This document shows, piece by piece, positions 1,791 to 62,192 of a stretch of DNA of 64,000 bases; the first letter of the stretch is position 1; each line of letters begins with the position of its first letter. The stretch is from Octopus vulgaris (taxonomy: Eukaryota). The notes below the pieces were generated by a model. It was not told the origin of the DNA. It did not search any database and saw nothing but the letters and a program-made list of their open reading frames with translations. Location of the stretch: positions 27,590,001 to 27,654,000 of the forward strand of contig OX597831.1 in assembly GCA_951406725.2 (NCBI GenBank). The letters are read 5' to 3'. A program made the position numbers and the translations under genes.

Positions 1791-1977
1791 GCACATTTTA
1801 AAACTCCAATGAATGTGTCTCATAAGTCATGTACTCATGTAATAAGCTTGATTCCCATCCACTTGGTCCTAGGTTCAGTCCCACTGTGTGGTACCTTGGG
1901 CAAGTGTCTTCTACTATACCCTTGGGCTGACCAAAGTTTTGTGAGTGGATTTGGTAGACAGAAATTGAATAAACCTC

Positions 1978-2510
1978 CAGTTCTATATTTAAGAGATGAG
2001 GAATTATTTACATTTGATGTATATTTGTCGTCATCTTGTTTGCTGTTAACAACATTTTGGCTGATATACCCTTCAGCCTTCATCAAGTGTCTTGGGGAAA
2101 TTTTCAACCTGGGTTCTCATTCCTAAGGTATTTTTCGATGTTGTTGTTGTTATTATTATTATTATATTCAGGTCACTGCCTGGAATCGAACTCAGAATCT
2201 TGGGATTAGTAGCCTGCGCACTTAACCACTACGCCATATGCACGTGGGCCAACGGGCTTATGGTGTAGTGGTTAAGAGCGCAGGCTACTAATCCCAAGAT
2301 TCCGAGTCCGATTCCAGGCAGTGACCTGAATATTAATAATAATAACAACAACAGCAACAACAATAATAATAACAACAACATCGAAAAATATCTTAGGAAT
2401 GAGAACCCAGGTTCGAAATTTTCCCCAAGACACCTGATGAAGGCTGGAAGGTATATTAGCCAAAACGTTGTGTTAAGAACGAACAAGATGACAAATATCC
2501 GTCAAATATA
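1978..2510. mobile_element. Palindromic tRNA-headed, hammerhead-bearing retroposon, copy 1, inserted into a CORE-like SINE
   Basis: Arms of ~240 bp are inverted about ~2248. Each arm has an A-box (TGG(T/C)GTAGTGG) and B-box-like (GT(T/C)CGATTCC) head, (AAT/AAC)n and an HHR motif. The 10-bp direct repeat AATAAACCTC sits at 1968-1977 and 2511-2520, and the host SINE resumes after it. Confidence 0.8.
2430..2473 (+). ncRNA. Minimal type I hammerhead ribozyme motif (decayed, G12>A)
   Basis: ACAC-CTGATGA-A-GGCTG(gaaggtatat)TAGCC-AAAA-CG-TT-GTGT. Stems I and II pair. GAAA reads AAAA at a former CpG. Confidence 0.65.
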
Positions 2511-3239
2511 AATAAACCTCGTCGTGTATATGCGTGTATGGTTTTGAGTCCGTGTTTGTTCTCCCCCCACCACCATCACTTGACAACCGATATTTGTGTG
2601 GTTACATCCCCGTAACTTAGCGGATCAGCATAAATGACCGATTAAGTACTAGGCGGTGCTCCAGTCAAATGACTAAAATACGAATGTATGTGTGTGTGTG
2701 ATTGTTTTTGTACCCTGCCAATGCGACAACCAGAGTTGTTTTTTTAGTTGTTGTTGTGTTTTTACTTCTCCATGATCTAGCAGCTCGGCAAAAAGATACC
2801 GATAGAATAAGTATCAGGCTTCAATAAAATAGGTACTGGAGTGGGTTTGTTCGACTAAACTCTTCAAAGCGGTGCTCCAGCATGGCCGCAATCGATTGAG
2901 TGAAACAAGTAAAACTTAAAGAGAAAGGATGCAAAATGAGGGAGGAAACAGCTTAGAAAAGACCAAGGGTAACACAGTTATCTCCCCTAAGTGCGAGATG
3001 ACCGCTAAAATATTGATCTCCTGACCTCTATTGATATTAGAAGAGATTAAGTGACCAGAATAGTAGACAGTACATGAGGTGTTTAATTTCGGAGTAAATA
3101 CATCGAACTGGTACATGACCGCAGGTAAGTTTCTAAAACAGCATTCGATTGGTTAGAGACCAAGCATATTCAGGAAGATATCGAACCCTGGAGATTAAAA
3201 CAAGAGATGGGGTTACTGCAACATTTTTATCCTAACCTC

Positions 3240-3660: not shown

Positions 3661-4395
3661 GTCTGTAGTATTTGCAAGTGCGATGTTTTACCGAATTGAA
3701 ATAGACAAAAGAGTCTCGGGTGTCCTTCAGGGAGGTAACTCTTAAGACAGAATACAGAGTTACGTCCCGTAGTTGAACCACTTGTTTTACCATAACAACA
3801 AACTGACACTTAATACATATTCAACGTTTAATAGGAGAGCTATATCATATGACACCACAGGAATAGCTAAACAGTACAGCTGTTTAGTGCTACTGTTTAA
3901 TTCTAGGTCAACTCTGACAGAGCAGAAGTACATGATCAAGGACATAACACTTCCGTTTTTTTTCTGTCACATTTTAATGCACCCACCACCACCCAATGCA
4001 TTTAGGACTATATCATTTAAAAATGTCCTTTATAATAATAAAAAATAAAAATAATAATAATAATAATAATGAAATTATCGTATACAGTGCTCAGGTGCAC
4101 CACAACTTGTCAGAAAGTGCATATAAAGTACATGCAGTAATGTAGAAATGTCTGGAAAGCGATCAATGTATGAGTCAGATACATGCTTGTGTGTGTATGG
4201 AGGGGAGAAAATCAAGTGTAGTGTTGGCGAATCTCAGGAAGCATGGAAGTTTTGAAGGATGCAGTGCTCCTTATATCAAAGTGTAACCTATGTTATGAAA
4301 CCAGGTTGCTATTTCTAACAGATCTATCGACCTCGTCGTTAAATTGTTACTACAAGGGACAAGTGCCTTAATAGAAGAATTATCTAGTTTAATAC

Positions 4396-4833
4396 AGTTC
4401 TACATTTAAGAGATGAGAAATTATACACATTATTTACATTTGATGGATATTTGTCCTCATCTTGTTTGTTGTTTGGGGAATTTTCCAGCCTGGGTTCTCA
4501 TTTCTAAGGTATTTTTCGATGTTGTTGTTGTTATTATTATTAGTACTCTGGTCACTAACTGGAATCGAACTCAGAATCTTGGGGTTATTAGCCCGCACTC
4601 TTAACCACTACGGGCATATGGTGTAGCGGTTAAGAGCGCGGGCTACTAACCCCAAGATTCCGAGTTTGATTCCAGGCAGTGACTTTAATAATATTAATAA
4701 TAATAACATCGAAAAATACCTTAGGTTCGAAATTTTCCCAAGACAACTGATGAATGCTGGACGGTATATCAGCCGAAGCGTTGTGTTAACAACAAACAAG
4801 ATGAGGACAAATATCAATCAAATGTAAATAATG
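4396..4833. mobile_element. Palindromic tRNA-headed, hammerhead-bearing retroposon, copy 2 (left-arm HHR deleted)
   Basis: Same start (CAGTTCTA.ATTTAAGAGATGAG) and same inverted arms as copy 1. Flanked by the direct repeat TATCTAGTTTA at 4381-4391 and 4837-4847. Confidence 0.75.
4742..4786 (+). ncRNA. Minimal type I hammerhead motif (decayed, GAAG)
   Basis: GACAA-CTGATGA-A-TGCTG(gacggtatat)CAGCC-GAAG-CG-TT-GTGT. Confidence 0.6.
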
Positions 4834-6164
4834 AACTATCTAGTTTATTGTGTAGGAAACTATTTTGTACAAAATAGGCGCTTGCAATCACAGGCTATTC
4901 ATGCAGACAACCGATGACTACAAAACATACACATATATACACAAACACATATACGCAACCGCGCGCGCGCACACAGTCTAGAAGGTCCAACATCCTAAAG
5001 AAGCATGTTTCTTATCTCCAGTGTTTTAATCTATATACTTTTATCTCTTCTCCACTCTCTCATATACAAGCAAGAGTTGGTCCAACAGTCTAAAGAATCA
5101 ATTATTTTTTTTTATCGTCCGGTTTCAATCTACATATTGCCTATCTCTCCCTTTCTCTCATTCTCTGCTCCCTCCCCCACAACATCTGTGCGTTTCCTTG
5201 AACTATTGCTTAAGGTCGGTTGTCGATCACCAGTGTATTTAGTTAAGAGTTCTTATGATCGACAACACGTAAAATACTGCCTTACTCCGCCCCACACACA
5301 ATGGCAGGAGATACACACGAATGCCAGATTTACATACAAATACACACAAAGACAAGACACACATGCACGCACACTTACACACACACACGCATACACACAA
5401 GTGGGCACTGTCACTTAGGAACATTTATTCAACTGGCAAGCCTACACTTCACTCTGACACAATCACACAGGAAGCCATTAAAAGAAAAACAAAAGCAAGT
5501 ATGCATGCGCGCACACACACACACACACAAACGACAGCTGGCCAACGCAGGACAAACATTGTGTTTAAAACGTTTTTCAGGGTGGAGGAGAGAGAGGCAG
5601 CAAATTTTATTTGGTGATTTTAATAACAGTTTGTTCTCTTAAGTCATTAGTGGAAAACACCGAGGGCAATAGAAAGGAATGTTTCCAGAAACCAGGAGAC
5701 TGGTAGAAGGAAATTATTCCCAAATTCTCAAACCAGAGACCTAGTCCTGGCCCCAAATAATAACAACATAGTGAACTCTATGAAAAGCACCACATATGGG
5801 CCAGTGGTTAGTTTCAGTTAAAGTATAACTATTGTTATACTACAAAGACTTGTTTTGTTTTTACCTCTTAGTCAGGCGGGAAAGCAATATTCATAACTCT
5901 TTACAGTAAGGGTGCCCGACCACCACCTGACCATAAACCAGTACCAAGCCATGGATCATTTGGTTGTGGGCCACACAGAAAGAATAATTTTTTTAAAAAA
6001 TCATTTCTATTTTATTGACTATTGCAGTCTGCAGGACGTTTTTTTTTTTTTCTTTTGCACTATATATGGGTTATAGGTTGGTGAGCTGGCATAATTGTTA
6101 CCACGTTACGTGAAACACTTAAAGGTATTTCATCTGTTTACCTGAAACGGCAGAAACGTTAGAA

Positions 6165-7460: not shown

Positions 7461-8969
7461 TTGGTTCCCATAAATAACATGTTTTTTTATACTTTTATTT
7501 TTCAAAATCATAGGCGCAGGAGTGGCTGTGTGGTAAGTAGCTTGCTTACCATCCACATGGTTCCGGGTTCAGTCCCACTGCGTGGTACTTTGAGCAAGTG
7601 TCTTCTACTCTAGCCTCGGGCCGACCAAAGCCTTGTGAATGGATTTGGTAGACGGAAACTGAAAGAAGCCTGTCGTGTATATATATATATATATATATAT
7701 AGATAGATATGCGTGTGTTTTTGTGTGTCTGTGTTTGTCCCCACCAACATCGCTTGACAACCGATGCTGGTGTGTTCACGTCCCTGTCACTTAGCGGTTC
7801 GGCAAAAGAGACAGATAGAATAAGTACTAGGCTTACAAAGAATAAGTCCCGGGGTCGATTTGCTCGACTAAAGGCGGTGCTCCAGCATGGCTGCAGTCAA
7901 ATGAGTGAAACAAGTAAAAGAGTATAAACAAATATGGTGGATGGGGCATCGTTTCCCATTCAAACTGCTCCAGCCTTTGGAATGTCATCCTTGCTTTATG
8001 TGGCTGAGTATTATCCGGATGGAAGAACACTTCGCATCTCGAAACCAAAGATGGTTGTTTTTCTTCAAGTGCTTGCTTAATTCGCTCAAGCTGCTCACAG
8101 TAGATCTCCTTTGTTATCCTTTGGTTTTAGTTTAAACGTTCAAAGTGGGCTAAATCTTTCATAGCCCACCATACAAACAACACCTTATATGGGTGAAAAC
8201 CTTCTTTAGGTGCCAGTGTTTCTCCTTTTCCTACCCACTGTCTTCGGCACTTGACATTTTTATAGAGAATCTATTTCTCGTCACCAGTCTCTATTCGGTC
8301 TAAAAAAGGTTCATTCATGAGACGTGACAATAAAGAAGAGCACACATTCACTCTGTGCACACAATTAGACTTGGAAAGTTTGTAAGGAATCCATTGACCC
8401 AATTTGTTAACTTTTCCGATGGCACACAGGTATTGCTGAATGGTTGAATGACTAAATCCAAGCCTCTCTGCAAGTTCCTCAACAGTTATGACAGGATTTT
8501 GTTCCACCCGGGTTTGCAGGATGTCCTCATCGAGCTCTACAGATCTTCCAGGATGAGGCTGGTCTTCTAGGCTGTAGTTTCCAGCTCAGAATTTCTGGAG
8601 CCTCAGTTGACACTGGCTTCTGTTTGTCCGATCCCCATATACTGTATTAATATTGCTCACACTTTCCATTGAATTTTTGCCTTTATTGAACTCAGAAAGC
8701 AAAATATGCTGAATATGCTCCTTTGTCATTTGCATTATAGCTCTGAAAATTTGTTAAAATCAAACTGCACTCTTCAAAACTTGCACTAAGAATAGCAACA
8801 AGGTGGTGCTCCAGCATGACCACAGCCGCATGGCTGAAACGAGTAAAAGAGTAAGGTAAAATTACTTTCTGCTTTTATAGCAAGTTGATGCAGTTAGCTT
8901 AATCTGTCCCCCCTCCAACTTTAATTCATGCAATTAAAAAAAAACACATTATTTATGGGATGACCCAAT
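7461..8969 (-). mobile_element. Decayed mariner (Mos1/SETMAR-like) transposon interrupted by a SINE
   Basis: Inverted termini TCCCATAAATAA(C/T)(A/G)TGTTTTTT at ~7466 and ~8940-8969. Transposase fragments ITVEELAERLGFSHSTI..LGQWIPYKL..FLDRIETGDEK and FHPDNTQPH..WETMPHPPY, with stops and frameshifts. Confidence 0.85.
7511..7925 (+). mobile_element. CORE-like tRNA-derived SINE with internal microsatellite (other copies at ~1480-1748, 11031-11445, 16200-16540, 18622-19010, 39558-39972, 40220-40600, 45540-45905, 47660-48155, 48875-49600, 52420-52890)
   Basis: GGCGCAGGAGTGGCTGTGTGGTAAG..GGTTCAGTCCC head, CORE-like (G)TGG(C/T)AC(C/T)TTG(G/A)GCAAGT, (TA)n(TG)n, and the tail GGCGGTGCTCCAGCATGG..TGAAACAAGTAAAAGAG. 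Confidence 0.85.
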
Positions 8970-14066: not shown

Positions 14067-14745
14067 GTTAGTTAGTTAGTTAGTTAATTTGGCTCAAAAG
14101 CAAATAGCAAGGCCATGTAGGGGGATATGGAGTTAAGTACAAGGTGGTGTTCATGTAAAGAGTTCAGGCCACTTGAGGTCCAGGGAGGCTTTGAACAAAG
14201 CGGTCGTCGGCATCTTCACCATCTCGTCTGGCAGCTTGTTCCATGGATCCGCAACCCGGACGGAGAAAGCTCCTCTCCTTCGATTGAGATGAAATCGTCG
14301 CAGGTAGAGCTTTTCGGAATGACCCCGCAGCCGACGCTCTGGAGCAGGAGTGAAGAACAGCTCTTTCGAGAGGTTACACTTTCCGCTTATGATGTTGTGG
14401 GCGAGAATGAGATCACCACGGCGGCAGCGTTTTTCAAGAGAATAAAGGTCGAGCGTCCTCAGCCTTTCTTCGTAGGACAAATTTTGAGACTATGAACCAT
14501 GCAGGTAGCCAGCTTCTGGACTCTTTCGAGATGCTGTATGTCTTTGAGGAGATAAGGAGAAGAGGCTTGAATCCCATACTCCAATATGGGTCTCACCAGT
14601 GTGACATAGAGTGGTAGGAATATGGCTGCTGTGAGCATTCCGAATGACCGTCGAATCAAGAACAGAATTCCGCGTGCTTTGTTGGCAGCATGGACGCACT
14701 GGGCTGAAGGCGAAAAGGAGGAATCCACCAAGATACCCGTTAAGA
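14067..14745 (-). mobile_element. 5'-truncated CR1/L2-clade LINE (RT C-terminus) with (TAAC)n tail
   Basis: Translation LYVTLVRPILEYGIQASSPYLLKDIQHLERVQKLAT / SYEERLRTLDLYSLEKRCRRGDLI..FSVRVADPWNKLP, with one frameshift at ~14485. Confidence 0.9.
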
Positions 14746-14949
14746 TACACACCATAAAGTAGTGTAGTTTAGTGAATGAAATCATGAAATCAGTTGTGTT
14801 GTCTTATTTATCGGTCTTTCGGAACTCATATTGCACTGTAGTTCCAATATCTACTGTTAGGCGTCATTGTTACTCGTAATTCCCACAATTGCTTTGAATT
14901 CAGATTTGTTTACATCTGTTTATCGGCTACTTTCTTATTCTCATTCATT

Positions 14950-20285: not shown

Positions 20286-20667
20286 GGAAGCACTCCGTCG
20301 GTTACGACGACGAGGGTTCCGGTTGATCCAATCAACGGAACAGCCTGCTCGTGAAATTAACGTGTAAGTGGCTGAGCACTCCACAGACACGTGTACCCTT
20401 AACGTAGTTCTCGGGGATATTCAGCGTGACACAGAGAGTGACAAGGCCGGCCCTTTGAAATACAAGGTACAACAGAAACAGGAAGTAAGAGTGAGAGAAA
20501 GTTGTGGTGAAAGAGTACAGCAGGGATCGCCACCATCCCCTGCCGGAGCCTCGTGGAGCTTTAGGTGTTTTCGCTCAATAAACACTCACAGCGCCCGGTC
20601 TGGGAATCGAAACCGCGATCCTACGACCGCAAGTCTGCTGCCCTAACCACTGGGCCATTGCGCCTCC
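20286..20667 (-). mobile_element. Young tRNA-derived SINE, near-identical to 60424-60806
   Basis: Head GGAGGCGCAATGGCCCAGTGGTTAGGGCAGC..GGTTTCGATTCCC with CpGs intact. The 15-bp direct repeat AACAACAACATAAAG lies at 20266-20280 and 20674-20688. Confidence 0.85.
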
Positions 20668-37243: not shown

Positions 37244-37891
<648 letters not shown>

Positions 37892-50269: not shown

Positions 50270-51210
50270 AAAAAAGTATTCCATTTGGAGAGAGATAAAT
50301 ATTATTTAATAAACACAATATATGTTTTTATGTGCTACTATTAGTTTCGTGTGATGAGAGCATGCCAGACAGTATTTTTTAACACATCTGATGTCCTAGC
50401 ACAATCATCAGGCACTGCCCACATGGCATAACAAACTAAAAATGGGAAAATAGGATGAGAGAAAAAACGAGAAAGGACTAGAATGAAGTAGATATAAAAG
50501 GTGGAAGGCTAAAAAACCGGAAAACAGGGAAAAAAGCAACAAGGGACACATGGCATTAGAGTTATTCCCCTTAGACCGTAATGTATAAGGCTGAAAAGAT
50601 AGTAGCTTAGTGAGGTACAGCTGATCAATTCGGAGAGGGTGGAACTTTCCAGTTCGTCAACATGAATTTAGCCATATGCTTAGAAGCGCTAAAAATTTCG
50701 GATCTAGAATTCATCAGTGAGTTAGAGTTCTTAGATCTGAAAAGGATCTGAGTTTTTTGAGCTATGCATAGCTTCCATTTTTCTGATCCGTTAACATATG
50801 GTGTGGATTATTCGACTACTTTCCACTTTATCGTATGTGGTATGGTGTTCGACTTTATACTCCATACTTGGTTAGCTTTACTTTTATCCCTGTGTCGGAA
50901 GGAAGATATGTGATAGCACAACAATTTTTGACTTCGCTTTAACATAGTTCTTATCGGTTGTGTTACCATCCAGCGTTGCTGTAACTTCTACCTTACATAT
51001 CACGGATTTAAGAAATTCGCCCCTCATCGAGTGGACAGGTTCCTGGGTCTCTACGTTTACAACTGGGAGTGGCTGCTAGGTGTTGTTCACATGTAATGAT
51101 GCTTTTTATATTGGGGCAGCAGCTATATGATAATTTTATCGTGCGCCTGTTAAATATTTTCCTTACCTGTAATTTTCTGGAAAATGTTTCTCTGGGAGAG
51201 ACAGGTATCT
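50270..51210 (-). mobile_element. Penelope-like element 3' remnant (GIY-YIG endonuclease C-terminus plus pLTR-like tail)
   Basis: Minus-strand fragments SSFRHRDKS..IKWK..PYVNGSEKWKLCIAQKTQILFRSKNSNSLMNSRSEIFSASKHMAKFML resemble the PLE C..C..EK..I...LN.R.E....C.H motif. Followed by an HHR. Confidence 0.75.
50332..50415 (-). ncRNA. Type I hammerhead ribozyme in the Penelope 3' region
   Basis: Reverse complement reads GTGC-CTGATGA-TTGTG...CACAC-GAAA-CTAATAG-TA^GCAC. Core intact, stem I GTGC/GCAC. Confidence 0.75.
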
Positions 51211-59499: not shown

Positions 59500-60072
59500 G
59501 AGATATACATGCATATAGATAGATAGATAGACTGGCAGGTAGAAGAGAGAGACAAATGAGAAATATAAATTATATATAAAACAAGTTTTAAACTACAAAA
59601 GCCACACACAAAAATGCTATGTTAACATCATCAAAATCCTCAATGATAACAACAGCATATTCGACAGTCTAATAGTAGTAGTAGCACCAGCAGCAGTTGT
59701 AGTAGTAGCAGAAGTAAGTCATCTGGACTTTACAGGTTTGAGTTTTAGGATTCATAGGACCGGTTACTTGGTTACCCTGGTCCATGGCGTATAAGTGACA
59801 GGGATCGCCACACTTTCCCTGAATTGGACGCCAGTTCGTCGCAGCGTTAGTCATTTACATGTGAAATGAAGTGTGTTGCTTAAGAAGGCAATGGGAATCG
59901 AAACCACTATCTCGCAGTCGTGAGTGTAATCCTCTGACCACTGGACCACGTCACGCTGTACCACGTCACGCTGTACCACGCACCGATGTCTCCTACATGT
60001 GGGAGTGGACAGTGTTTGCTGGAGTACATAAATACACTTGACAGTAGAGAGAGAGAGAGAGAGAGAGAGAGG

Positions 60073-60423: not shown

Positions 60424-60806
60424 GGAAGCACTCCGTCGGTTACGACGACGAGGGTTCCGGTTGATCCGAATCAACGGAAACAGCCTGCTCGTGAAATTAA
60501 CGTGTAAGTGGCTGAGCACTCCACAGACACGTGTACCCTTAACGTAGTTCTCGGGGATATTCAGCGTGACACAGAGAGTGACAAGGCCGGCCCTTTGAAA
60601 TACAGGTACAACAGAAACAGGAAGTAAGAGTGAGAGAAAGTTGTGGTGAAAGAGTACAGCAGGGATCACCACCATCCCCTGCCGGAGCCTCGTGGAGCTT
60701 TAGGTGTTTTCGCTCAATAAACACTCACAACGTCCGGTCTGGGAATCGAAACCGCGATCCTATGACCGCGTGTCCGCTGCCCTAACCACTGGGCCATTGC
60801 GCCTCC
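60424..60806 (-). mobile_element. Young tRNA-derived SINE in an SLC28 intron
   Basis: Near-identical to 20286-20667. Inserted in a (CTA)n tract. Confidence 0.85.
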
Positions 60807-60869
60807 ACTCTACTACTACTACTACCACCACAACAACAACAACTTCAACAGCACCATTCTCCAACTTAC

Positions 60870-61050
60870 CTGCAATACAAGCTGTTAGGAAACAAGCGAC
60901 GTTGCCGGCTATCATTGCCCTTACCACTGTTTGTGCAATGATGTCTCTCTTTTGGGGTGCCAGAATGGTAAGTCCTCCCAGTACAATACCCATAGAACCA
61001 ATGTTGGCAAAACCACAAAGGGCATAGGTGGAGATGATCTCAGAACGGAC
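60870..61050 (-). CDS. SLC28: Concentrative nucleoside transporter (SLC28/CNT3-like) exon
   Basis: Acceptor TCTTCCACAG|, then VRSEIISTYALCGFANIGSMGIVLGGLTILAPQKRDIIAQTVVRAMIAGNVACFLTACIA-G, then donor |GTAAGT. 181 bp. Confidence 0.95.
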
Positions 61051-61597
61051 CTGTGGAAGATAATAGAAGGGTGTAAGAATTTAAGAATTGCTGGTGCAAA
61101 GGGGAGGGGTGGCTTTAATGCTTCTTGCTACTGGCACTCCGTCGATTACGACGATGACTGTTCCAGTTGATCCAATCGACAGAACAGCCCGCTCGTGAAA
61201 CTGACGTGCTGCAAGTGGCTGACTACTCCACAGATACGCGTACTCTTCCCGTAGTTCTCAAGGAAATTCGGCGTGACTTCATAACGATAAAATACAAAGT
61301 CACTCTCGGCGGAATTTGAACTCAGATCGAAAATGCATTTTGTCTGGAGTGATAACGATTCGGCCAGTTCGCCGCCTTAATAATCTTTTCTACCATAGGC
61401 ACAAAACCTGAAACGTTGGAGGAGGGGGATAGACTATTACGTCGACCCCAGTACGTAACTGGTGCTTATTTCATCGACTCCCGAACGGATGAAAGGCAAA
61501 GTCGACCTTGGCGGAATTTGAAATCAGAACGTAGCGACGCGCGAAATACCGCTAAGCATTTCGTCCAGCGTGCTAACGATTCTGCCAGCTCGCCGCC

Positions 61598-61643
<46 letters not shown>

Positions 61644-61808
61644 TAATAATAATAACGATAACGATAACGATGATAATAATAATAATAATAATAATAATAA
61701 TGGTGATGATAATAATAATGATGATAATAACAACAATAATAATTATAATAATAATGACATGATGATGATGATAATAATAATAATAATAATAATAATGATG
61801 ATATTTAC

Positions 61809-62072
61809 CTCCATAATGCCTCCTACTAATGTGGTACCTGTTTGATTTAAGAATATATCTCTACCGATCTGTGTCCAATCGTCTGTCATGTTATAATAGT
61901 TAGTGTAATTATCGAAAATTCTGCGGTTGTCCACGAACTTTTTCAGTCGACTGTAGGCGATCATTTCGTTAAGGAAGGTTTTGGTGCCAATCAGTTCAGC
62001 GACTTGCAAACAATCGTCTTGTGCTGTACCCATCAAAAAGGCAATTGGGTAGAGAACGTAAGAACAAATTTT
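61809..62072 (-). CDS. SLC28: Concentrative nucleoside transporter (SLC28/CNT3-like) exon
   Basis: Acceptor CCTTCCAG|, then KICSYVLYPIAFLMGTAQDDCLQVAELIGTKTFLNEMIAYSRL...GGIME, then donor |GTAAAT. 264 bp, in frame with the next exon. Confidence 0.93.
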
Positions 62073-62192
62073 CTGGAAGGAGAGAAAAATAAACACATAA
62101 ACACACAATAAAAACTGAATATATGTATGTGTGTGCGTTTGTACGAGATTCGCCTTCACCGGCAAAATGTCAGCACCTTATCGTCCCGTTCT

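What the first reader, a model, noticed from the sequence alone, without database searches (positions are those of the whole stretch)
1978..2510. Palindromic twin-tRNA-promoter, twin-hammerhead retroposon: a possible Penelope-mobilised SINE
Seen: two ~240-bp arms point away from a centre at ~2248. Each starts with a tRNA-like head (A and B boxes) and ends in a minimal type I hammerhead (right 2430-2473, left 2048-2090 on minus). The whole palindrome is flanked by a 10-bp direct repeat and splits a host SINE. Each HHR is damaged, mostly at CpGs, but combining the three arms in the window restores ACAC-CUGAUGA-A-GGCUG..CAGCC-GAAA-CG-UU-GUGU with a palindromic ACGU stem III. Established: minimal, dimer-type HHRs mark Penelope-like element pLTRs, PLE copies often carry inverted pLTRs, and Schistosoma Sm-alpha combines Pol III boxes with an HHR. 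Inference: this is a SINE-like family with a ribozyme-defined end, mobilised by Penelope RT/GIY-YIG rather than by a LINE, and inserted as a fold-back that would give long dsRNA inside the PI4K2 intron. Caveat: a T4 run just upstream of the HHR could terminate Pol III.
Basis: partly seen in the sequence, partly recalled or inferred. Interest (0 to 1): 0.8.

Follow-up and report, generated by a model that had tools for sequence, protein, structure and literature searches.

The report
tRNA-headed Penelope-type retroposon in octopus
An abundant octopus repeat joins a tRNA-like start to a hammerhead-ribozyme motif and sits in this window twice as a head-to-head pair with duplicated target sites and a one-sided tail, so it is likely a SINE copied by Penelope retroelements rather than by LINEs, a pairing I did not find described.

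Summary
The window (Octopus) has two head-to-head insertions, 1978-2510 and 4392-4832, with 10-bp and 15-bp target duplications. In both, only the left arm carries a 26-36-nt tail, as described for Penelope-like element (PLE) insertions. Public reads show a high-copy family. The same hammerhead type follows a PLE RT/GIY-YIG gene in another animal. Inversion junctions vary between copies, so the mobile unit is likely one ~270-nt arm, with the inverted partner made at insertion. Two corrections: the hammerhead does not define the end (copies run 40-85 nt past the cut site), and the two hammerheads lie on opposite strands, so they cannot pair in one transcript. Not shown: the partner PLE, Pol III transcription, cleavage. 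Non-autonomous PLE derivatives and Schistosoma Pol III-plus-hammerhead repeats are known; ten paper searches found no tRNA-headed, PLE-tailed SINE. Repbase, Dfam and SINEBase could not be checked. The scan has not reported this family before; it saw PLE fold-back end-pieces in other genomes. Verdict: new variant, interest 0.62.

The parts
1968..1977 (+). Left target-site duplication of insertion A (10 bp)
1978..2248 (-). Insertion A, left arm: full unit with tail
1978..2008 (-). One-sided 3' tail of A (26-31 nt, depending on a 5-nt microhomology at the other junction; lacks a 9-nt segment that B and many family copies have)
2049..2090 (-). Decayed minimal type I hammerhead, A-left (C3, G12 and a stem III base changed; 2-nt deletion in stem I)
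2168..2243 (-). tRNA-like head, A-left (box A 2226-2236, box B 2183-2191)
2249..2510 (+). Insertion A, right arm: unit without tail
2254..2329 (+). tRNA-like head, A-right (box A 2261-2271, box B 2306-2314)
2330..2378 (+). AAT/AAC microsatellite joining head and body (shorter in the other arms)
2430..2473 (+). Minimal type I hammerhead, A-right (G12 changed to A); predicted cut after 2469
2511..2520 (+). Right target-site duplication of insertion A
1852..1977 (+). Left part of the interrupted host SINE (abundant in the window)
2521..2654 (+). Right part of the interrupted host SINE
4377..4391 (+). Left target-site duplication of insertion B (15 bp, 14 match)
4392..4611 (-). Insertion B, left arm: 33-36-nt tail (4392-4427), hammerhead deleted, head 5'-truncated
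4609..4832 (+). Insertion B, right arm without tail: head from 4612 (box A 4619-4629, box B 4664-4672); shares 3 nt with the left arm at the junction
4743..4786 (+). Minimal type I hammerhead, B-right (three deviations)
4833..4847 (+). Right target-site duplication of insertion B
37445..37855 (-). First coding exon of PI4K type 2; both insertions lie downstream of it with no later exon in the window (intron 1 inferred)

Best explanation
This is a high-copy, non-coding octopus repeat whose ~270-nt unit runs tRNA-like head, microsatellite, minimal hammerhead motif, tail, and it is likely a Pol III-transcribed SINE that borrows the reverse transcriptase and GIY-YIG nickase of a Penelope-like element instead of a LINE. 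Step 1 (inferred): Pol III starts at or just before the tRNA-like head, reads through the hammerhead (no T4 in the family majority) and stops in flanking DNA. Step 2 (inferred): the PLE protein recognises the PLE-type 3' part, nicks the target and starts cDNA at the fixed tail end. Step 3 (inferred from the products): a second copy, starting about 25-35 nt further in, is made in the opposite orientation, and the two are joined head to head at a variable point, often with 2-3 nt of microhomology. Shown result: a palindrome with a tail on one side and a 10-15-bp duplication. The template was not cut at its hammerhead (shown by the sequence kept beyond the cut site). The motif is therefore most likely carried along from the partner's end, or acts as a recognition or RNA-RNA dimer element, and does not make the end. 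Host transcription through a palindrome would give a ~220-bp hairpin (predicted).
For: (1) Two independent insertions share the left end and the one-sided tail. Craig et al. describe an inverted 5'-truncated copy and a 30-40-bp tail at one end as PLE hallmarks (PMC8557442 passages). (2) Duplications of 10 and 15 bp; variable length is expected for GIY-YIG-primed insertion (same paper). (3): 15,393 and 10,235 contigs and 6,847 and 5,328 RNA reads lie on one arm. Loose ends run into mixed flanks at 1978 (266 and 258 contigs) and at 2003 (81 and 89). 5 of the 15 joints shown are opposite-strand, at five different junctions. (4) Family majority at the hammerhead (X1/X3/X23/X24): C3 92/94/98/97%, G12 58/83/71/72%, stem III base 78/79/56/54%. 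(5) The motif has the listed minimal-HHR traits: helix I 4-5 bp, one extra base before G10.1-C11.1, palindromic stem III (PMC4209133). (6) The same core, stem II and stem III lie about 90 nt after a broken RT/GIY-YIG ORF in L002/L003. Stem I, which was not in the search pattern, changes on both sides at 3 of 5 pairs. (7) The head starts at tRNA position 1: its 15-mer lies at position 8 in 23 of 23 real tRNAs that hold it (23 of 120 loci), and the rest of the head beats all 100 shuffles in 2 of 3 heads. (8) O. vulgaris has 190 PLE families (6.83% of the genome), 30 Penelope families recently active (PMC13282606).
Against: No autonomous PLE sharing this 3' end was found. No genome is held. The one octopus PLE hammerhead I could read (Hydra-1_Obim) is different, and L003 shares only the hammerhead. 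RNA reads are unstranded and show no sharp start or end, so neither Pol III transcription nor cleavage is seen. All hammerheads in the window are damaged, their folds are no better than shuffles (z -0.6 and -0.7), and Rfam has no hit. The 2003 boundary is partly confounded by the 9-nt segment. Of four informative columns, two group arms by insertion and two (both CpG) by side (a fifth was an alignment artefact), so the one-arm unit is not proven. Reads were cut at the microsatellite, so head-body linkage rests mainly on 4 of 4 arms in the window. One search has only six sequences, in related groups.
Confidence: 0.68

Rival explanations
1. These are ordinary 5'-truncated end-pieces of an autonomous PLE whose pLTR or 3' UTR once captured a tRNA or SINE head. 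The head is a passenger and Pol III plays no part.
For: PLEs are mostly 5'-truncated, and minimal hammerheads occur as opposite-strand pairs 100-700 bp apart (PMC4209133). The body is 3-4 times deeper than the head in DNA contigs. Short nonautonomous Penelope pieces are common elsewhere (PMC6685494 passage).
Against: Three of four arms begin within a few bases of tRNA position 1. Family depth ends at 2243-2249 and no shared upstream continuation appears among the 24 loose ends shown (595 not shown). Three of five opposite-strand joints start at 2238-2241. No PLE ORF remnant in the window.
Confidence: 0.16
2. The whole palindrome is the master unit, transcribed by read-through and copied as one piece by PLE machinery.
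For: Both window copies are palindromes. Two CpG columns group left with left and right with right, and one of them (2194) splits about evenly in the family, 41-60%. 430 and 349 RNA reads run from 2249 into an inverted head.
Against: The centres of A and B differ. Five other inversion junctions are seen. The one non-CpG informative column groups the two A arms in a state held by only 7-12% of the family. The RNA signal at 2249 may come from few loci (position 2244 differs in 67-71% of RNA reads against 8-11% in DNA).
Confidence: 0.1
3. A LINE-mobilised SINE inserted by twin priming, or a fold-back DNA element (MITE), with a chance or relic hammerhead.
For: The tRNA head and variable duplication also fit LINE-driven SINEs. 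Palindromic repeats are often DNA elements (Harbinger in Xenopus, PMC5625713 passage).
Against: No A-tail or simple-repeat end. Both arms hold the same 3' part, which twin priming does not give (own knowledge). Ends are asymmetric and duplications have two lengths, unlike TIR elements. The hammerhead core is intact in the family majority.
Confidence: 0.06

Closest known systems
[quoted passage not shown] 2021)
   Same: Inverted partner at the 5' end, tail on one side, variable duplication, minimal type I hammerhead near the 3' end with an extra base after position 9 and a palindromic stem III.
   Different: No ORF. The unit starts with a tRNA-like Pol III head. No shared sequence with any PLE I could read except the hammerhead itself.
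Metazoan non-LTR retrozymes (PMC7761336; bioRxiv 10.64898/2026.07.22.740005)
   Same: Short, non-coding, type I hammerhead, proposed non-autonomous PLE derivatives.
   Different: Retrozymes are head-to-tail tandems cut to monomers and circles. Here copies are dispersed, head to head and uncut at the hammerhead, and they carry a tRNA head, which the text I read does not mention.
Schistosoma Sm-alpha / Sj-alpha SINE-like repeats (via review PMC6765202)
   Same: Pol III promoter plus hammerhead in one short repeat.
   Different: Those are often tandem, are cleaved from multimers, and lose the promoter function as single copies. No PLE-type tail or inverted pairs are stated in the passage read.
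tRNA-derived SINEs, including octopus OK, OR1 and OR2 (Ohshima and Okada 1994, not seen)
   Same: tRNA-like head, length under 700 bp, high copy number, target duplications.
   Different: SINEBase defines SINEs as LINE-dependent with a simple-repeat tail. OR1 and OR2 are cited as CORE-SINEs. Their sequences could not be compared.
Helenus and Ajax (tRNA-bearing non-autonomous LTR elements, PMC10886601); MRC1 (non-autonomous Chlamys PLE, PMC8557442)
   Same: Precedents for small-RNA heads on non-LINE partners, and for non-autonomous PLEs.
   Different: Helenus and Ajax use LTR machinery. No tRNA head or hammerhead is stated for MRC1 in the passages read.

Membership tests
PLE-type insertion | Inverted copy adjacent to the 5' end | tested here: met
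   2 of 2 insertions; 5 of 15 joints shown are opposite-strand
PLE-type insertion | 30-40-bp tail at one end only | tested here: met
   A 26-31 nt, B 33-36 nt, left arm only; family ends at 1978 and 2003
PLE-type insertion | Target duplication of variable length | tested here: met
   10 bp and 15 bp
Autonomous PLE | RT plus GIY-YIG ORF | tested here: not met
   No ORF in the unit; no tblastn hit below E 0.4 in the window
Non-autonomous PLE derivative | 3' end shared with an autonomous PLE of the same genome | not testable with these tools
   No genome held; Hydra-1_Obim hammerhead differs; tail pattern absent from metagenome and viral contigs
Minimal type I hammerhead of PLEs | Core CUGANGA and GAAA, extra base between 9 and 10.1, G10.1-C11.1, palindromic 15.2-16.2, helix I 4-5 bp | tested here: met
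   Family majority; every copy in the window is damaged
Minimal type I hammerhead of PLEs | Self-cleavage as a dimer | not testable with these tools
   No sharp RNA ends in unstranded RNA-seq, which cannot decide it
SINE (SINEBase definition) | Under 700 bp, non-autonomous, repeated | tested here: met
   ~270-nt unit
SINE (SINEBase definition) | Head derived from a Pol III RNA with boxes A and B | tested here: met
   2 of 3 heads beat all shuffles; parent isotype not determined; no ARAGORN or Rfam hit at default settings
SINE (SINEBase definition) | Transcribed by Pol III | not testable with these tools
   one search shows family RNA but no start site or strand
SINE (SINEBase definition) | LINE partner and simple-repeat 3' tail | tested here: not met
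   Fixed complex 3' end with no A or simple-repeat tail; a LINE partner itself could not be searched
Non-LTR retrozyme | Head-to-tail tandem of hammerhead units | tested here: not met
   Both insertions are head to head; one tail-only tandem joint among 15 shown
Octopus OK/OR1/OR2 SINEs | Sequence identity to the published consensus; CORE domain for OR1/OR2 | not testable with these tools
   Original paper and SINEBase supplement not available
MITE / fold-back DNA element | Symmetric terminal inverted repeats and fixed duplication length | tested here: not met
   Asymmetric ends; 10 and 15 bp

The most novel reading that the evidence does not exclude
A new SINE-partner class: a tRNA-headed, Pol III-driven SINE that runs entirely on Penelope machinery and has not been described as such. 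Because PLE insertion makes head-to-head pairs, the family would seed the octopus genome with thousands of ready-made long hairpins, a candidate source of the unusually high dsRNA potential and A-to-I hyper-editing reported for octopus. The short leader that is complementary to the start of the head could make cDNA snap back, so that each palindrome regenerates palindromes.
Probability: 0.4. Interest if true: 0.78.

Novelty: new variant of a known kind. Interest (0 to 1): 0.62.

Why it matters
SINEs are defined as LINE-dependent. A high-copy SINE carried by Penelope RT/GIY-YIG would add a new partner class and link SINEs, retrozymes and the Schistosoma Pol III-hammerhead repeats. A short uniform passenger with many copies is also a good probe of two open PLE questions: how the inverted copy and one-sided tail arise, and what the hammerhead is for. 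Here the inserted template was not cut at it. Octopus has exceptionally high hyper-editing and dsRNA potential, and its repeats were left out of that analysis (PMC5625713 passages); this family is a concrete candidate to test.

Tried and rejected
GENOME AND DATABASES: no whole genome is held, so no genome-wide copy set or partner search was possible. Rfam gave only hairpin or microsatellite chance hits, no tRNA or hammerhead. ARAGORN found nothing at default; at lowered thresholds it called both heads and spurious regions, so I did not use it. The tail pattern found nothing in metagenome or viral contigs. Pfam did not recognise the L002/L003 fragments; the homologue search did. No RNA holder was listed in the run index, which says nothing about expression.

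CANDIDATES REJECTED: Hydra-1_Obim as partner (different hammerhead; 0 hits for three short motifs in that supplement, though line breaks could hide a match). A third hammerhead-like hit at 50369-50415 is at chance level. The 'T4 terminator' is copy-specific.

SIGNALS NOT USED: A>G excess in RNA reads as editing, because C>T, G>A, G>C and G>T sites are raised in RNA against contigs too. Copy number from contig depth, because overlapping contigs inflate it; I say only 'high-copy'. Share of full palindromes, because contigs break at palindromic centres (own knowledge).

OTHER: one search had stem I misregistered by my error and was redone. A resemblance of the head to eukaryotic tRNA-Arg is recalled only; the tRNAs available were Asp, Gly, Pro, His and Val. 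Papers not held: Lunse 2017, Albertin 2015.

Full report
SETTING. The window is octopus DNA: the exon at 37445-37855 (minus) is 98.5% identical to O. bimaculoides PI4K type 2. It ends in a GT donor, and no later exon lies in the window, so the finding probably sits in intron 1 (inferred). No whole genome is held.

OBSERVATION. The palindrome is real. Arms 1978-2248 and 2249-2510 align at 82%. A 10-bp repeat flanks them, and five host-SINE copies hold that site once. Only 1 of 1379 random boundary pairs reached 10 exact bases. Its left arm lost the hammerhead by deletion. The head occurs only in these four arms in the window.

ASYMMETRY. Both insertions share their left end (0.01 matches expected). 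The right arms stop earlier, leaving a tail on the left arm only: 26-31 nt in A and 33-36 nt in B. Craig et al. describe this for PLEs: an inverted 5'-truncated copy at the 5' end, a 30-40-bp tail often at one end only, and duplications of variable length (PMC8557442, passages).

FAMILY. I laid 4 of the 24 listed runs on the left arm of A: two DNA contig sets and two raw RNA runs. They gave 15,393 and 10,235 contigs and 6,847 and 5,328 reads. Loose ends run into mixed AT-rich flanks at 1978 (266 and 258 contigs; 1,489 and 1,335 reads) and at 2003 (81 and 89; 1,170 and 694). The second boundary is partly confounded by a 9-nt segment that A lacks. Of 15 joints shown (24 not shown), five switch strand: 2044/2241, 2103/2238, 2193/2241, 2014/2042 and 2014/2072. 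I read these as a tailed arm of variable length joined to an arm that often starts at the head. 430 and 349 RNA reads continue from 2249 into an inverted head, but they may come from few loci. The share of full palindromes cannot be measured this way.

HAMMERHEAD. A relaxed scan finds 2430-2473 with one deviation (0.05 expected) and 4743-4786 with three (0.3 expected); A-left fails. The family majority restores the core: C3 in 92/94/98/97%, G12 in 58/83/71/72%, and the stem III base in 78/79/56/54% for X1/X3/X23/X24. The anatomy matches the minimal PLE hammerhead: helix I of 4-5 bp, an extra base before G10.1-C11.1 and a palindromic stem III (PMC4209133, parts 1-2 of 4). The same core and stems occur in four metagenome loci. 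In L002/L003 (one locus) they lie about 90 nt after a broken ORF whose homologues carry RT and GIY-YIG domains. Stem I was not part of that pattern, yet it changes on both sides at 3 of 5 pairs across the six sequences (few, related sequences). Against: the window copies fold no better than shuffles, and Rfam has no hit.

THE RIBOZYME DOES NOT MAKE THE END. The predicted cut in A-right follows 2469. The arm continues about 40 nt, and tailed arms 75-85 nt, so these templates were not cut there. The two motifs of a palindrome are on opposite strands and would be buried in the long hairpin (-343 to -345 kcal/mol against about -118 for shuffles), so they are no cis-dimer. RNA reads show no sharp start or end and no strand.

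HEAD. Boxes A and B have tRNA spacing in three heads (only the strict match is above chance, and weakly). The head's 15-mer lies inside an ARAGORN tRNA in 23 of 120 viral-collection loci, always at position 8. The remaining 52 nt beat all 100 shuffles in 2 of 3 heads. So the unit starts at tRNA position 1; the parent isotype is not determined. The T4 run before the hammerhead is copy-specific: the family majority has three T (positions 2104 and 2105, 72-85%), and neither tailed arm has T4.

UNIT. The centres differ: A joins two full units with a 2-nt overlap, while B has a truncated left head and 3 nt of microhomology. Of four informative columns, two group arms by insertion, including the only non-CpG one (a state held by 7-12% of the family), and two CpG columns group by side. 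I favour a one-arm unit with the partner made at insertion, but this is not proven.

MECHANISM. Inferred: Pol III transcript from the head; capture by a PLE RT/GIY-YIG protein through the PLE-type 3' part; priming at the tail end; a second, inverted copy starting about 25-35 nt further in; joining at a variable point. Shown: the products. PLEs are plentiful in O. vulgaris (190 families, 6.83%; 30 Penelope families recently active; PMC13282606, parts 1-2 of 3 and supplement search). The partner is not identified: Hydra-1_Obim has another hammerhead, and the read tool cut reads at the microsatellite, where a partner's sequence would diverge.

KNOWN SYSTEMS. Retrozymes are non-autonomous PLE derivatives but tandem (bioRxiv 10.64898/2026.07.22.740005, parts 1-3 of 5, supplements not seen; PMC7761336 passages). 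Schistosoma repeats combine Pol III and a hammerhead (PMC6765202 passages). SINEBase defines SINEs as LINE-dependent (PMC3531059 passages; supplement unavailable). OR1 and OR2 are cited as CORE-SINEs (PMC4758252 and PMC4824008 passages); the 1994 paper was not seen. I also read passages of PMC6962438, PMC10886601, PMC5625713, PMC8969392 and PMC6685494. Ten searches found no tRNA-headed SINE with a PLE partner. Subscription papers, Repbase, Dfam and the Zenodo library were not searchable, and a family this abundant is very likely in automated libraries under some label. The scan's own notes hold no look-alike of this arm; they hold PLE fold-back pieces and a one-off SINE-PLE join in other genomes. 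Unlike that one-off, this join recurs in two insertions and four arms.

VERDICT. Real and high-copy, and it works like a PLE passenger with a SINE head. New variant of a known kind; best reading 0.68; interest 0.62.

Noticed in passing
window 2244-2253 and 4609-4611: The few bases upstream of tRNA position 1 are complementary to the start of the head. A's two leaders overlap by 2 nt and B's junction has 3 nt of microhomology. This could allow snap-back priming of cDNA.
   Followed up: partly
window 2002 and 4419-4427: A 9-nt segment in the tail is present in B and in 253 and 193 RNA reads but absent from A. It resembles a degenerate duplicate of the adjacent end motif.
   Followed up: partly
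joints 2014/2042 and 2014/2072: Mini-palindromes made of only the tail plus a 40-70-nt inverted end occur in RNA reads (47 and 36; 23 and 4 reads).
   Followed up: no
positions 2023, 2085, 2100, 2238 (A>G) and 2046 (T>C): Raised in RNA against DNA contigs. Possibly A-to-I editing, but other change types are raised too.
   Followed up: partly
L003:2379-4032 (same locus as L002): Broken Penelope-type RT/GIY-YIG gene with coral homologues, followed about 90 nt later by a minimal hammerhead with the same stem II as the octopus family.
   Followed up: yes
L001:283-692 and L004:564-969: A shared 415-nt repeat (90% alike) ends right after the same hammerhead type; probably another PLE end-piece.
   Followed up: no
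window 20604-20657, 59895-59948, 60743-60796 (minus): Three more box A/box B heads with identical boxes; probably another SINE family.
   Followed up: no
window 1852-1977 and about 20 other places: The host SINE is very abundant in the window, and inverted neighbours at 1636-1746 / 1859-1969 could also pair in intronic RNA.
   Followed up: partly
window 60760-62177 (minus): Two exons of a Na+-dependent nucleoside transporter gene (PF07662).
   Followed up: yes
window 8271-8585 (minus); 14151-14803 (minus): A helix-turn-helix fragment that resembles a mariner transposase (recalled), and a LINE-like ORF remnant (recalled; no Pfam hit).
   Followed up: partly
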